Positions 48,657 through 62,965 of a stretch of DNA of 62,993 nt are shown piece by piece. The position numbers and the translations under genes are program-made. The notes under the pieces are model-generated. The model had not been told where the DNA came from. It made no database searches and was given only the letters and a program-made list of their open reading frames with translations. The stretch is from a virus (taxonomy: Duplodnaviria; Heunggongvirae; Uroviricota; Caudoviricetes). Positions within the stretch are counted from its first letter, which is position 1, and every line of letters starts with the position of its first letter. The DNA lies in the IMG/VR virus record IMGVR_UViG_3300033120_000611; one strand, 5' to 3'.

Positions 48657-48876
48657 TTTTATTTGATTTTTCTATTGGAATTGGATTCTTCTTTCTCTTA
48701 TAACCGGTTTCCTCCATAAATTCACTATTGAGCTGGTGAATTCTATCGAGATACTTTTGTCCAAACTCATTGAATAACTCATCTGAGGTAAGCATCTCTT
48801 CTTTCATACAGTCAATCATCTTATAGAACTCATCTCTGAGCTCTTTCTCCTTTTTCAGGATTCCTAAAAAACTCAT
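48580..48876 (-). CDS. Hypothetical protein
   Basis: ORF track. Confidence 0.5.
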   Translation of the reverse strand: MSFLGILKKEKELRDEFYKMIDCMKEEMLTSDELFNEFGQKYLDRIHQLNSEFMEETGYKRKKNPIPIEKSNKNVHRQTILGRQDTTNSTEGQANRVA

Positions 48877-49409
48877 TTAATTTGTTTTAATCGTTGAGAA
48901 TATGTTTTTCCATCTACTATTGTTGTGCAATATACCTTATCTAGGAAGTAATAGTAGTCCTCATCACTCTCAATATTGAATGCATAGGCAGCTTGCCATA
49001 TTCCATAATCGATTAGTGATTCTTTCCAGTTATCATATGATGCCATGATTGGATCTATATTAGTTCCAGTTGATGGTCTTCCCAGACAAGCATGCATACC
49101 GGTAACATTATTATACATCTTAAAATATGGACTTGTGTAGTGAGCGCTTTCTATTACTGTTTGCTGCCATACTATATGCTGATGCTTTAGATGTATCTTA
49201 TCTATATAAGCTATTACGTTTTCATCTGTACATGCATCAGTTCTAGGAGTTAATACTACTGGTATTCTTTCAACAATAGTATTTACCTTAACAGCTGATC
49301 CGAACCCCATAACTAAAAACACACAAGCAACTAGAATACCTAATCTAAGATTCCAAGTTTTTGTGTGTTCATACTGCAAAGTCTTTTCATTAAATTTGTA
49401 AAGTTTCAT
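48873..49409 (-). CDS. Membrane-anchored glucosaminidase/lysozyme-like protein
   Basis: N-terminal TM helix; QTVIESAHYTS...NNVTGM...YDNWKESLIDY. Confidence 0.55.
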   Translation of the reverse strand: MKLYKFNEKTLQYEHTKTWNLRLGILVACVFLVMGFGSAVKVNTIVERIPVVLTPRTDACTDENVIAYIDKIHLKHQHIVWQQTVIESAHYTSPYFKMYNNVTGMHACLGRPSTGTNIDPIMASYDNWKESLIDYGIWQAAYAFNIESDEDYYYFLDKVYCTTIVDGKTYSQRLKQIK

Positions 49410-49431
49410 AAACTTTGTTTCGTTAAGAAAT

Positions 49432-49478
49432 ATAAGCTTATAACCTTATAATATTGTAATATAAGGATATAGGCTTAT
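49432..49478 (-). terminator. Long AT-rich hairpin closing the ncRNA array (terminator or processing stem)
   Basis: ATAAGCTTATA-A-CCTTATA / TATAAGG-A-TATAGGCTTAT inverted repeat, followed by a U-rich tract on the - strand. Confidence 0.45.
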
Positions 49479-49481
49479 TAG

Positions 49482-49596
49482 CGAGGCACATGGGAGTCGA
49501 ACCCAATACTTTTCCTATTCTCTCACTACGTTTGTGAGTCTTTCAGATTAGCCGATATATTATTACATGTCTCCCGACAAGCTCAATATGCACCTC
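49482..49596 (-). ncRNA. tRNA-like RNA (acceptor stem + T-arm, non-canonical middle)
   Basis: GAGGTGCA/TGTGCCTC stem, TGGG-TTCGACT-CCCA T-arm, hairpins TGTC-GGGA-GACA and CTCAC/GTGAG; no canonical anticodon arm. Confidence 0.55.
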
Positions 49597-49601
49597 AGAT
49601 A

Positions 49602-49825
49602 GAGTATGTTTGATGCCCTAGTTTATCTTTCCGAGCAGTTTTATTATGCTGCCTTAGACACTACGCTCCTATTAAGTAGTGGTCTGTCTAAACTGAATCC
49701 CACTACAATAACGTCACAAAGTCTATCTTCAACTCGTTACATGGTAAGGGTTTGTTCCCGTCCTTCCATATAACAAAACACAGTGAGTTTATTTTTGACT
49801 GAAACGCTAGGTTTACGCCATACTC
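49602..49825 (-). ncRNA. Unassigned 224-nt structured RNA
   Basis: Terminal stem GAGTATG/CATACTC, CCTAG/CTAGG, several hairpins and two potential pseudoknot pairings (7 bp and 10 bp). Confidence 0.6.
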
Positions 49826-49828
49826 TTG

Positions 49829-49980
49829 TACGTATAGTAGGATTCGAACCTACAATTCCTTAGGATTATTGCTACCACCGGAATGTCAAATTACAGCCAT
49901 GAGCAAGGCCCTCACACAGTCAATGCTATGGGACTCTTATAGGCCTTCTAAGATGTGTACGCCAATTCCACCATATACGT
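49829..49980 (-). ncRNA. tRNA-like RNA with an 86-nt domain in place of the anticodon loop
   Basis: ACGTATA/TATACGT acceptor stem, A73, GTG-GAATTGGCGTA-CAC D-arm, TCTTA/TAAGG stem, GTAGG-TTCGAAT-CCTAC T-arm. Confidence 0.7.
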
Positions 49981-49984
49981 ATTG

Positions 49985-50361
49985 TGGACCAGGTGGGAGT
50001 TGAACCCACGTCCGGACAAGTTCGTCTTTACGATTTATTCATAAGCTTAGGTAGTTTTTAGCGATCTACCAACGATTGGGGCACCCAGTTTTACGTGAGG
50101 CCAACTCCACCATATGCATTAAGGCGATGCATAAACCTGATTATCTGTAGCCTTCTGTTACTAAGACAAAAGGACTCTGGCTTACACCAGGTCTCTTTCT
50201 GCTACAAGCTCGTTGCTCTCTACAAACGCCATAGCGTCTTCGAAAGTCATAGAAGATAGTTCTTCTGCGATTGTTGTTTGATACCTATTTTTATGGTGTT
50301 GAGTATCATTCACCAGCTTAATCGTAAAAATGTCTGCTCCCCGTCAATACCCGGCTGGCCC
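49985..50361 (-). ncRNA. ssrA: tmRNA
   Basis: Acceptor GGGCCAG/CTGGTCC with G3-U70 and A73; 5' GGTATTGAC; T-arm GTGGG-TTCAACT-CCCAC; tag frame 50268-50182 after AACAATC. Confidence 0.9.
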
Positions 50362-50367
50362 TTTATA

Positions 50368-50571
50368 TTATCTTCTCTCTCGAGATTGTTTTATTCCATC
50401 TAAGGATGTTTTTATATCATATAGAGATCTCCAGGTAAGTTGATACCTTTCGCCAAGAGATGCTAGATCATTACACATCTCTTCAAGTTTAGTTATACCA
50501 AAACTTAACTCCTTATCAGATATATGATCTCCATCTCTAAACTTCTTCACTACTTGTCCTATCAGTTCCAT
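50368..50571 (-). CDS. Hypothetical protein
   Basis: ORF track. Confidence 0.55.
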   Translation of the reverse strand: MELIGQVVKKFRDGDHISDKELSFGITKLEEMCNDLASLGERYQLTWRSLYDIKTSLDGIKQSRERR

Positions 50572-52437: not shown

Positions 52438-52523
52438 TACCCCCGACAGGACTCGAACCTGCACGCCCCTTACGGAGCAAGGGATTTTAAGTCCCTCGTG
52501 TCTACCAGTTCCACCACGGAGGC
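52438..52523 (-). tRNA. tRNA-Leu(UAA)
   Basis: Cloverleaf; AGGGA-CTTAAAA-TCCCT; long variable arm. Confidence 0.92.
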
Positions 52524-57974: not shown

Positions 57975-58242
57975 TTTTGGAGTTTGTTAAACGGGTCTCC
58001 ATCCCGTACTCATTATAGTAATCACCACTATGAATCTTTCCAGAGGGTGAGTGATGTATTCCAGAAACAGCGAGGCTTATATCTTATGGGCTCCTCCTTT
58101 CACGTCTCATTGAGTTATCAATGGAAATGCAAAACCATTGCTCATACCACGGCGTCTGTTTCCTATTACTATATAACGCCTATTTTCCCCCGAGTTCAGA
58201 GAAACTATTGCACACCCTCTACCCATCTTAGAGGACGACATT
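57975..58242 (-). ncRNA. Unassigned ~265-nt structured RNA between tRNA-His and tRNA-Pro
   Basis: Long-range pairs AGAGGGTG/CACCCTCT and GAAACAG/CTGTTTC; hairpins GGCGT/ACGCC, CAATGG/CCATTG and ACGGG/CCCGT. Confidence 0.5.
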
Positions 58243-58393: not shown

Positions 58394-58397
58394 ATAA

Positions 58398-58483
58398 AGA
58401 TAAGATCAGAGCACCTGAGGACCTCCTTATCGGTGGCCCGGTTAACATACTTGCTTAAGGTATGCCAGTGGTTAATCTTATCT
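58398..58483 (-). ncRNA. Unassigned 86-nt multi-stem element
   Basis: 9-bp closing stem AGATAAGAT/ATCTTATCT enclosing GCATAC/GTATGT and GGGCC/GGTCC hairpins. Confidence 0.4.
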
Positions 58484-58488
58484 AAGCG

Positions 58489-59153: not shown

Positions 59154-59227
59154 TGGACCGAGTGGGGTTCGAACCCACCACACTCTCCTTGCAAGGGAGA
59201 ATCGCCAGCCAAGGAACATGCCAGCCC
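59154..59227 (-). tRNA. tRNA-Ala(UGC)
   Basis: G3-U70, A73; TCTCC-CTTGCAA-GGAGA. Confidence 0.9.
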
Positions 59228-59232
59228 AACTC

Positions 59233-59523
59233 CTACCTACCATTTCTGGCTGCAGGATATTTCTTATTACTTCTTCCATCATCTATAGCATCCATTAGAA
59301 GTCCAAGTAGAACTCCTACTCCTAATGACATAAAGAAAGCAAGTCCTATAGTCATACATAAGACTACAGCCCATACTATCAGTTTGACAAGGACAGCATA
59401 TTGAGTTTGATCAGTTCCTCCTAATAGATGATAAACAGCTGATACTATCCAGGAGTCTACATAAATTATGGAGAATAGAAAGAAGGCGATACCCACTATT
59501 ATGGGCACTATAATTTTTAACAT
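59233..59523 (-). CDS. Membrane protein
   Basis: Two to three hydrophobic helices; start MLKII. Confidence 0.6.
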   Translation of the reverse strand: MLKIIVPIIVGIAFFLFSIIYVDSWIVSAVYHLLGGTDQTQYAVLVKLIVWAVVLCMTIGLAFFMSLGVGVLLGLLMDAIDDGRSNKKYPAARNGR

Positions 59524-60064: not shown

Positions 60065-60221
60065 AAGTAAGGGGACACTGATCTACTACTCCAATGCACT
60101 AAAGTAATAAATCTCTCCCCCGTGTAAAGATCGAACAGAGGTAAGATTTGAGATGGTAGAAACCATTTAGGCGCACCTCTTTCTCTCTTAAGGTTGTATC
60201 TACTTTAACCACCTTCTGTTC

Positions 60222-60312: not shown

Positions 60313-60392
60313 TTATGTAGTATCGACCTTTATAGGTGGCCGAATCATTGCTGAACGTGGACCTAAGCTATCCACTACACCATATCTTTTGG

Positions 60393-60836: not shown

Positions 60837-60840
60837 ATTT

Positions 60841-60965
60841 AGTAAATGAGCCACCATCCTTAGGTATTGATTGCTCCTGACCTTTGATTGTCTACACCGT
60901 TTCATTGAAGATTACTGGGAAGCTTTCTCCATCATTCAACTATTGTAGGTTCTAACTCATTTACT
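60841..60965 (-). ncRNA. Unassigned 125-nt structured element between tRNA-Ile and tRNA-Asp
   Basis: Perfect 10-bp closing stem AGTAAATGAG/CTCATTTACT with inner CTACA/TGTAG, TTGAA/TTCAA and AGGT/ACCT. Confidence 0.45.
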
Positions 60966-61599: not shown

Positions 61600-61989
61600 A
61601 TGAAACAATGTATTATTTGTGGAAATGACCTATCCATAACCCAGGTCAAGTATTGTAGTAACACCTGTAAGCAATCAGCCCACTACAAGAAGTTTAAGAC
61701 TGACAATCCTAACTCTACCTACTCTCAGTTCAGTCGAGCTGATAAGAGAAAGAAAGAATTTATCAGACAGCTTGGTGGAAAGTGCTCTAAATGTGGGTAT
61801 AGTAAGAATTATGGCGCTCTCAGCTTTCATCACAAAGGTGATAAGCTCTTTCCTTTGGATTCTCGTAACATAGGTAACAGAAGTTTGGAATCTCTTAAGC
61901 TGGAAGTAGCTAAGTGTGATCTCTTGTGCCTTAACTGTCACATGGAATTACATAATCCTCAGTGTCTCCTACACGATTCGAACGTGTGA
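61600..61989 (+). CDS. HNH endonuclease with N-terminal Zn finger
   Basis: CIIC...YCSNTC; GGKCSKCGY...FHH...KCDLLCLNCH..LH. It is the only credible + strand gene in 46 kb. Confidence 0.85.
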   Translation: MKQCIICGNDLSITQVKYCSNTCKQSAHYKKFKTDNPNSTYSQFSRADKRKKEFIRQLGGKCSKCGYSKNYGALSFHHKGDKLFPLDSRNIGNRSLESLKLEVAKCDLLCLNCHMELHNPQCLLHDSNV

Positions 61990-62326: not shown

Positions 62327-62398
62327 TTGTTGAGGTGGCCATAATTAAAGACCTTTGGCTCTTAGTATCGGAACGGTCATGCGATCTACCTCAAGTAG

Positions 62399-62881: not shown

Positions 62882-62965
62882 CGGAAAGCTGAAGCCCTGA
62901 TCTCCTAACGTGTTATCGTCTCATCCCGTTAGCACCGGGAGCTAGCTCTTGCTAGTTAACCTTCC
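62882..62965 (-). tRNA. tRNA-Ser(GCU), atypical T-loop
   Basis: GGAAGGT/GCTTTCC, G73; TCCCG-GTGCTAA-CGGGA; long variable arm; T-loop ATCAGGG. Confidence 0.7.

What the first reader, a model, noticed from the sequence alone, without database searches (positions are those of the whole stretch)
49432..50361. Butt-joined ~900-nt array of four non-coding RNAs headed by tmRNA
Seen on the - strand, with no ORF: tmRNA (50361-49985), CAAT, 152-nt tRNA-like RNA (49980-49829), CAA, 224-nt RNA (49825-49602), TATCT, 115-nt tRNA-like RNA (49596-49482), then a long hairpin. Each unit is closed by its own 7-8-bp terminal stem, with 3-5-nt linkers. Inference: one precursor is punctuated by tRNA-like folds and cut by RNase P/Z-type processing into a functional RNA set. 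It may be a translation-rescue or anti-defence RNA machine, or a relative of large phage RNAs found near tRNAs (GOLLD/ROOL).
Basis: partly seen in the sequence, partly recalled or inferred. Interest (0 to 1): 0.78.

Follow-up and report, generated by a model that had tools for sequence, protein, structure and literature searches.

The report
Swappable phage RNA slot behind tmRNA
A soil phage carries a real ribosome-rescue RNA gene (tmRNA) followed directly by three folded RNAs that no database lists; relatives put different RNAs, a plain tRNA or nothing in the same place, so this is a swappable row of small stable RNAs like those long known from phages T4 and T5, not one four-part machine.

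Summary
Only the tmRNA is in Rfam. The 115-nt unit has one homologue: 5 compensatory changes, 0 of 33 pairs broken. The 152-nt unit is a tRNA-Leu-type frame without an anticodon; it has one 71%-identical homologue in an unrelated phage and belongs to a large class of such phage RNAs. The 224-nt unit is a singleton. Release by tRNA-processing enzymes is well supported but inferred: no promoter match, tmRNA 5-6 nt behind a stop codon, the same C74 as all 15 phage tRNAs. The 'functional set' is not supported. Of seven relatives with this tmRNA, five carry other RNAs there, one a true tRNA-Leu and one nothing, and the 115-nt RNA survives tmRNA deletion. It is not GOLLD or ROOL. T4 (rnaD, rnaC) and T5 (RNA1, RNAI, RNAIII) have the same butt-joined layout, and this scan noted similar arrays and tRNA-framed RNAs in many other phages. 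Verdict: a new member of a known kind, with uncatalogued RNA families of untested function.

The parts
49985..50361 (-). One-piece tmRNA; acceptor stem with G3-U70, discriminator A, CCA not encoded (followed by CAA)
   Evidence: ARAGORN; Rfam RF00023 67.7 bits; family alignment of 8 phage tmRNAs
50182..50268 (-). Tag reading frame, AEELSSMTFEDAMAFVESNELVAERDLV*: acidic, no C-terminal Ala-Ala; the core F-E-D-A-M-x-F-V is shared by relatives
   Evidence: Bxz1 tmRNA also has a long acidic tag ending in -LV
49829..49980 (-). Unit 2: tRNA-framed RNA (7-bp acceptor, A73, Leu-type D arm, canonical T arm) with a domain of about 85-100 nt in place of the anticodon/variable region; no anticodon
   Evidence: homologue in unrelated phage L080, E 3e-12, 71% identity; inner domain 60 of 87 columns identical; class common in IMG/VR; same frame as T5 RNA1
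49602..49825 (-). Unit 3: 224-nt stem-closed RNA with no T arm; nested terminal helices, a long hairpin and a possible H-type pseudoknot (49706-49676 with 49692-49653); singleton
   Evidence: fold z -2.25; helix list; no homologue
49482..49596 (-). Unit 4: 115-nt RNA with 8-bp acceptor and 4-bp T stem, a GNRA-capped first arm, and a second arm ending in a 5-bp stem with a 7-nt loop that holds a 4-nt palindrome (49531-49528)
   Evidence: homologue L117/L207, E 9e-19; 5 compensatory, 2 wobble-consistent, 0 broken of 33 pairs
49432..49478 (-). 17-bp AU-rich hairpin; possible RNase III-type or 3'/5' boundary element; absent behind unit 4 in L117
   Evidence: z -3.9; not scored as an intrinsic terminator
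49410..49431 (-). T-run, TTAAC and A-rich leader of the next gene (glucosaminidase-like, 48873-49409); not part of the RNA array
   Evidence: the same leader closes the slot in L115, L116, L117, L345, L372; PF01832 weak hit, below cut-off
50368..50571 (-). 67-aa ORF whose stop codon ends 6 nt before the tmRNA, leaving no room for a promoter
   Evidence: gaps of 5 nt in L115, L345, L346, L372

Best explanation
This is the last, most variable slot of a phage tRNA gene region. Separately inherited stable-RNA genes are stacked there because any RNA closed by an acceptor-like 7-8-bp stem is released from the read-through transcript by the host's tRNA-processing enzymes. Steps: (1) the row is transcribed from upstream genes (inferred). 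(2) RNase P cuts at the 5' ends of tmRNA, unit 2 and unit 4; 3' trimming and CCA addition finish them like the phage's CCA-less tRNAs; unit 3 is freed mostly by its neighbours' cuts (inferred). (3) The tmRNA is charged with alanine and rescues stalled ribosomes, adding an acidic tag that is probably a poor ClpXP signal (identity shown; tag effect inferred). (4) Units 2 and 4 do not decode. Their tRNA half is a chassis for processing and stability that displays a conserved folded domain (structure shown for unit 4, partly for unit 2). My single most likely role for them is a decoy or ligand for a host tRNA-binding or tRNA-cutting protein during infection (about 35%, untested). The four RNAs share a promoter and a processing route, not a job.
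For: T4 (tRNA-Arg, rnaD, rnaC; linkers 1 and 6 nt) and T5 (RNA1, RNAI, RNAIII, tRNA-His; linkers 0-4 nt) have the same layout, and T5 RNA1 has the frame of unit 2. The slot behind the same tmRNA holds a 228-nt RNA (L115), 225 + 84 nt (L116), 95 nt (L119), a ~75-nt stem-closed RNA plus tRNA-Leu (L345), a ~60-nt 8/4 mini-tRNA (L346), a canonical tRNA-Leu(UAA) (L372), or nothing (L121). A soil relative with a ~96% identical tmRNA diverges at 49981, just behind its 3' end. L117/L207 lost the tmRNA except its last ~33 nt but kept a tRNA-framed RNA and unit 4. All 15 tRNAs of the window, the tmRNA, unit 2 and unit 4 have C right after the discriminator; unit 3 does not. No host-type promoter match on the - strand between 49400 and 52150; sigma-70 and terminator matches are at chance level. 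A 7-bp acceptor stem is a major RNase P determinant (PMC4201824).
Against: No RNA data, so no end is mapped. Units 2 and 4 rest on two sequences each, and unit 3 on one. The phage may use its own polymerase and promoters that my scans cannot see. Independent inheritance does not exclude interactions in this one genome. The decoy role has no direct evidence.
Confidence: 0.7

Rival explanations
1. The four RNAs form one translation-rescue or anti-defence machine.
For: Tight packing, more than chance gives; all on one strand; two of the three unknown units are tRNA-like and could meet the ribosome.
Against: No relative carries the same set. The unit 2 homologue lies in an unrelated phage between protein genes, and its 12.9-kb locus has no tmRNA call. 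The unit 4 homologue lies behind a deleted tmRNA. Several related tmRNAs stand alone (L121, L123, L181).
Confidence: 0.07
2. Unit 2 is a tRNA with an intron that is removed to give a decoding tRNA, like the intron-bearing tRNAs reported for Lak phages.
For: ARAGORN can force an intron call; Lak phage tRNAs with conserved inserts are published (PMC6784885).
Against: The forced calls disagree between homologues (Ile-AAT versus Gly-CCC). The 6-bp 'anticodon stem' of the window shrinks to about 3 bp in L080. No excision leaves a normal loop with a purine at 37. The insert is too short for a group I intron and has no Rfam hit.
Confidence: 0.05
3. Units 2-4 are decaying tRNA or tmRNA remnants left by recombination at the tmRNA 3' end, with no function.
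For: The slot turns over fast; a tmRNA 3' remnant exists in L117; unit 3 has no homologue.
Against: Unit 4 has 19 differences from its homologue, 12 of them in stems, with no broken pair (random placement 2.5e-5). The inner domain of unit 2 is 69% identical between unrelated phages while the acceptor stem changed at four pairs and stayed paired.
Confidence: 0.1
4. Unit 3 is a detached tmRNA message domain: an alternative tag template used in trans with a tRNA-like partner.
For: 49796-49787 matches the resume context of this tmRNA family at 9 of 10 positions, is the only such match in the window, and is followed by 27 open codons. Earlier scan notes describe message-only tmRNA relatives in other phages (unchecked).
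Against: No pseudoknot before the site; the frame runs through a strong hairpin; first codon Ser, not Ala; no likeness to the family tag; 1.3 such matches are expected in the window by chance; noticed after the fact; no tmRNA model hit on unit 3 alone.
Confidence: 0.04
5. The array is a GOLLD- or ROOL-like large ornate RNA.
For: GOLLD and ROOL lie near phage tRNA islands, and GOLLD linkers can hold tRNAs (PMC12286853).
Against: No GOLLD or ROOL hit up to E 10; the units close on themselves and are exchanged one by one.
Confidence: 0.02

Closest known systems
T5 stable RNAs RNA1, RNAI, RNAIII (also RNA2, RNA2H, RNAIV), NC_005859
   Same: Three stem-closed RNAs of 106-144 nt joined with 0-4-nt linkers to each other and to a tRNA. 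RNA1 has a Leu/Ser-type D arm, an enlarged middle and a T arm, like unit 2. All are annotated as of unknown function.
   Different: No sequence similarity beyond the D and T arms; no tmRNA is annotated in the T5 cluster; T5 RNAs are annotated as stable RNAs, whereas no RNA data exist for these.
T4 RnaC and RnaD (species 1 and 2), NC_000866
   Same: 119 and 139 nt, butt-joined behind tRNA-Arg at the end of the tRNA cluster; RnaC has a T arm; expressed late, function unknown (PMC9697503).
   Different: Unrelated sequences; headed by a tRNA, not a tmRNA.
tmRNA (SsrA), Rfam RF00023; phage tmRNAs such as that of mycobacteriophage Bxz1
   Same: Unit 1 is a member. Bxz1 also has a long acidic tag ending in -LV. 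Phage tmRNAs are published (PMC12656738).
   Different: The family-wide tag core F-E-D-A-M-x-F-V and the row of RNAs behind it.
(8/4) allo-tRNAs and polycistrons of irregular tRNAs (Mukai et al., PMC5389517)
   Same: Unit 4 has an 8-bp acceptor, a 4-bp T stem and a long tetraloop-capped first arm; irregular tRNA polycistrons are described there.
   Different: Unit 4 has no separate variable arm, no U33 or purine 37, and its loop triplet differs between homologues.
Bacterial and phage Y RNAs (YrlA)
   Same: [quoted passage not shown]
   Different: [quoted passage not shown]
GOLLD and ROOL RNAs
   Same: Phage non-coding RNAs near tRNA islands with unknown function.
   Different: Single large RNAs (many GOLLD exceed 800 nt) that form cages (PMC12286853); no model hit here.

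Membership tests
tmRNA (RF00023) | Covariance-model score above the gathering threshold | tested here: met
   67.7 bits against 47, full length
tmRNA (RF00023) | Acceptor stem with G3-U70 and A73, T arm, tag frame with resume codon and stop | tested here: met
tmRNA (RF00023) | Alanylation, SmpB binding, trans-translation | not testable with these tools
   needs an in vitro or in vivo assay
T4/T5-type stable RNAs of phage tRNA clusters (a class by layout, not a sequence family) | Non-coding units of about 100-250 nt closed by an acceptor-like stem and joined to tRNA-type genes by 0-6-nt linkers | tested here: met
T4/T5-type stable RNAs of phage tRNA clusters (a class by layout, not a sequence family) | Sequence homology to RnaC, RnaD or T5 RNAs | tested here: not met
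   only D/T-arm level blastn hits; the unit 4 model finds nothing in the T4 and T5 regions
T4/T5-type stable RNAs of phage tRNA clusters (a class by layout, not a sequence family) | Accumulate as discrete stable RNAs during infection | not testable with these tools
   no RNA holder listed
Canonical tRNA (RF00005), units 2 and 4 | Model hit and 7-nt anticodon loop with U33 and purine 37 | tested here: not met
   no RF00005 hit on these units; loops non-canonical and not conserved
Canonical tRNA (RF00005), units 2 and 4 | Acceptor plus T stem of 12 bp, T loop, discriminator followed by C | tested here: met
   7/5 in unit 2 and 8/4 in unit 4
(8/4) allo-tRNA, unit 4 | 8/4 acceptor branch and long D-type stem with tetraloop | tested here: met
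(8/4) allo-tRNA, unit 4 | Cloverleaf with a normal anticodon loop and a long variable arm | tested here: not met
   only two arms between acceptor and T arm; the loop lacks U33
GOLLD / ROOL | Hit to the Rfam models; one continuous large RNA | tested here: not met
   modular exchange in relatives
Y RNA (YrlA) | YrlA model hit; Ro60 (TROVE) gene within 4 kb | tested here: not met
   no Rfam hit; ORFs within 4 kb are 411 aa or shorter and the longest is a helicase; the short ones were not all scanned for TROVE
RNase P RNA, 6S RNA, SRP RNA, small ribozymes, riboswitches (unit 3) | Rfam model hit | tested here: not met
   none up to E 10; by inspection no 3' strand for an RNase P P4 helix

The most novel reading that the evidence does not exclude
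The slot behind the tmRNA is a rack of exchangeable RNA counter-defence modules. Natural tRNA scaffolds (units 2 and 4) carry folded cargo domains that neutralise specific host tRNA-directed defences, are swapped as fast as anti-defence protein genes, and unit 4 pairs with copies of itself through its palindromic loop (ACGT here, AGCT in the homologue).
Probability: 0.2. Interest if true: 0.75.

Novelty: new member of a known kind. Interest (0 to 1): 0.42.

Why it matters
The function of the stable RNAs in phage tRNA clusters is an old open question; T4 RnaC and RnaD were still 'of unknown function' in 2022 (PMC9697503). This locus adds two RNA families with comparative support and one orphan, none in Rfam. 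It also shows one slot filled in turn by a true tRNA-Leu, tRNA-framed RNAs, unrelated folded RNAs or nothing. That fast turnover under structural selection is what host-phage conflict would produce, and it provides a natural series for one screen. The host is not known from my own tests and no function is shown, which limits the impact.

Tried and rejected
Rfam at the gathering threshold and at E up to 10: only tmRNA. blastn against cultured phages for the whole array, the unit 2 homologue and unit 4, and against plasmids for unit 3: nothing beyond T-arm matches. Single-protein locus searches in IMG/VR: none. Pattern scans: unit 2 in IMG/VR gave only L080; unit 2 in GTDB genomes gave only chance matches; unit 4 in IMG/VR none; unit 3 only chance matches; the tmRNA pattern in metagenomes gave one further family tmRNA (two records) among 34 hits. 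A unit 4 covariance model over 87 loci found only L117/L207. Fifty whole virus records: only L080; many are fragments, so absence is not shown. Sequencing runs: no RNA holder listed, which says nothing on expression. No whole genome was held. Paper searches found no description of these families; most subscription papers are not held, and the T4 genome review was not available. Rejected: intron in unit 2, RNase P or 6S identity of unit 3, Y RNA, GOLLD/ROOL, intrinsic terminator for the hairpin (4 G-C pairs, weak U run, not scored), and a 242-nt unit in L345 (its closing stem lies in a short ORF and is probably chance). A crAss-like identity is taken from earlier notes; my scans of the two large + strand proteins did not confirm it.

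Full report
Observation. Unit 1 is a tmRNA by ARAGORN and Rfam. Units 2 (49980-49829), 3 (49825-49602) and 4 (49596-49482) have no Rfam match even at E up to 10. Each folds with its ends paired, and the terminal stems also form in the whole precursor. Three abutting stem-closed units filling this stretch arose in 1 of 1000 shuffles. A second assembly is identical here and one contig spans the region.

Context. The window is half of a ~127-kb phage contig with DNA polymerase A, ribonucleotide reductase, rIIA/rIIB, primase and Nampt genes and 15 tRNAs upstream on the same strand. The array is the last RNA block before a glucosaminidase-like gene. Earlier notes call the phage crAss-like with a Bacteroidota host; I did not confirm that.

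The tmRNA. It has G3-U70, A73 and an intact tag frame. Relatives carry homologues whose tags share F-E-D-A-M-x-F-V with third-position variation, which points to selection on the peptide. Most end in -LV, -EA, -CV or -Y rather than Ala-Ala. From established knowledge, ClpX reads the C-terminal Ala-Ala, so these tags are probably weak degrons (inference). Bxz1 has a similar acidic -LV tag, so this is not unique.

Unit 4. One homologue was found (L117/L207; E 9e-19). I took the helices from the fold of the window alone and then compared: of 33 pairs, 5 change on both sides, 2 change to or from a wobble, and none breaks. Random placement of the 19 differences leaves all pairs intact with probability 2.5e-5. 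The tool's count agrees: 5 double changes, none in slid registers. The frame is 8/4, the first arm ends in a GNRA loop in both, and the second arm ends in a 5-bp stem with a 7-nt loop. Two of the few loop differences turn ACGT into AGCT, which keeps a 4-nt palindrome. This hints at kissing dimers but is weak with two sequences, and I took the idea partly from earlier notes.

Unit 2. One homologue lies in an unrelated 78-kb phage, between protein genes (L080). The acceptor (four pairs), D and T stems changed and stayed paired, and the inner domain is identical at 60 of 87 columns. No anticodon is conserved and forced intron calls disagree. A capped IMG/VR scan for a Leu-type D arm 85-115 nt before a T arm gave 114 stretches; about 50 are closed tRNA frames with unrelated middles. 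Unit 2 is one family within that large class, and T5 RNA1 is a cultured example.

Unit 3. It folds better than shuffles (z -2.25) and offers alternative helices and a possible pseudoknot. No homologue turned up in any search, so its status as a functional RNA rests on its position and closing stem. A resemblance to the tmRNA resume context is kept as a 4% lead.

Is it a set? No. Behind the same tmRNA, L115 has a 228-nt RNA, L116 225 plus 84 nt, L119 95 nt, L345 a ~75-nt RNA plus tRNA-Leu, L346 a ~60-nt mini-tRNA, L372 a canonical tRNA-Leu(UAA) close to the window's tRNA at 52438-52523, and L121 nothing. None of these RNAs resembles units 2-4 or each other beyond T arms. A soil relative with a ~96% identical tmRNA diverges right behind its 3' end. 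In L117/L207 the tmRNA is reduced to its 3' end, but a tRNA-framed RNA and unit 4 remain. L205 has no RNA at the site.

How it most likely works. The tmRNA starts 5-6 nt after a stop codon in five genomes, and no promoter match lies upstream, so the row must be cut out of a longer transcript (inference). A 7-bp acceptor stem is a major RNase P determinant (PMC4201824). All 15 tRNAs, the tmRNA and units 2 and 4 have C after the discriminator, mostly without encoded CCA, while unit 3 does not. This fits tRNA-type maturation of three units and passive release of unit 3. The tmRNA then rescues ribosomes. Units 2 and 4 use the tRNA half as a chassis for a folded domain; a decoy or ligand role against host tRNA-directed proteins is my best guess (about 35%), with no direct evidence.

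Comparison. T4 has tRNA-Arg, rnaD and rnaC with 1- and 6-nt linkers; T5 has RNA1, RNAI, RNAIII and tRNA-His with 0-4-nt linkers. Their function is still unknown (PMC9697503). The array works like these but is not homologous to them. It fails the tests for GOLLD, ROOL, Y RNA and canonical tRNA. The scan has recorded similar arrays and tRNA-framed RNAs in many other phages (unchecked notes).

Verdict. Real and accurately described; one known RNA plus two supported and one unsupported uncatalogued RNA in a known type of layout; not a machine. New member of a known kind, interest 0.42.

Noticed in passing
window 62882-62965 (-): Probable (8/4) tRNA-Ser(GCU) missed by ARAGORN and Rfam: 8-bp acceptor, 5-bp D stem with tetraloop, long variable arm, G73; anticodon kept and stems covary in L115 and L116. 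It matches the phage (8/4) tRNA-Ser of PMC5389517.
   Followed up: partly
window 62330-62393, 61800-61960, 60840-60964, 60313-60383, 60130-60220, 58397-58485 (-): At least six more stem-closed non-tRNA units lie between the tRNA genes; no homologues among the loci held.
   Followed up: partly
window 57975-58242 (-): A non-coding stretch of about 265 nt between tRNA-His and tRNA-Pro has homologues in L116, L206 and L115 (E 3e-7 to 1.5e-3); a candidate conserved RNA.
   Followed up: no
window 50182-50268 (-) and related loci: Phage tmRNA tags share the core S-x-F-x-F-E-D-A-M-x-F-V across distant phages (L115, L119, L121, L123, L181, L322, L345, L346, L372), whether or not they end in Ala-Ala; possibly a binding helix.
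   Followed up: partly
window 59160-59235 (-): A tRNA-like gene with a GCA (Cys) anticodon that neither ARAGORN nor Rfam listed; it has a homologue in L176.
   Followed up: no
L346:6138-6197: A ~60-nt mini-tRNA behind the tmRNA, with 8/4 frame, G3-U70 pair and a T arm identical to that of unit 4; it could be an alanine acceptor.
   Followed up: no
L116:6835-7060: A 225-nt RNA behind the tmRNA with a tmRNA-like 3' end (T arm and acceptor strand) but no G3-U70; perhaps derived from a tmRNA duplicate.
   Followed up: no
L322:660-806 (-): A more distant phage tmRNA is followed directly by a ~147-nt tRNA frame with a GUC loop and a very large variable region.
   Followed up: no
L121:2548-3501 and L345:3707-4648: A reverse-transcriptase gene (PF00078) lies inside the tRNA cluster of two relatives, directly before tRNA-Thr.
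   Followed up: no
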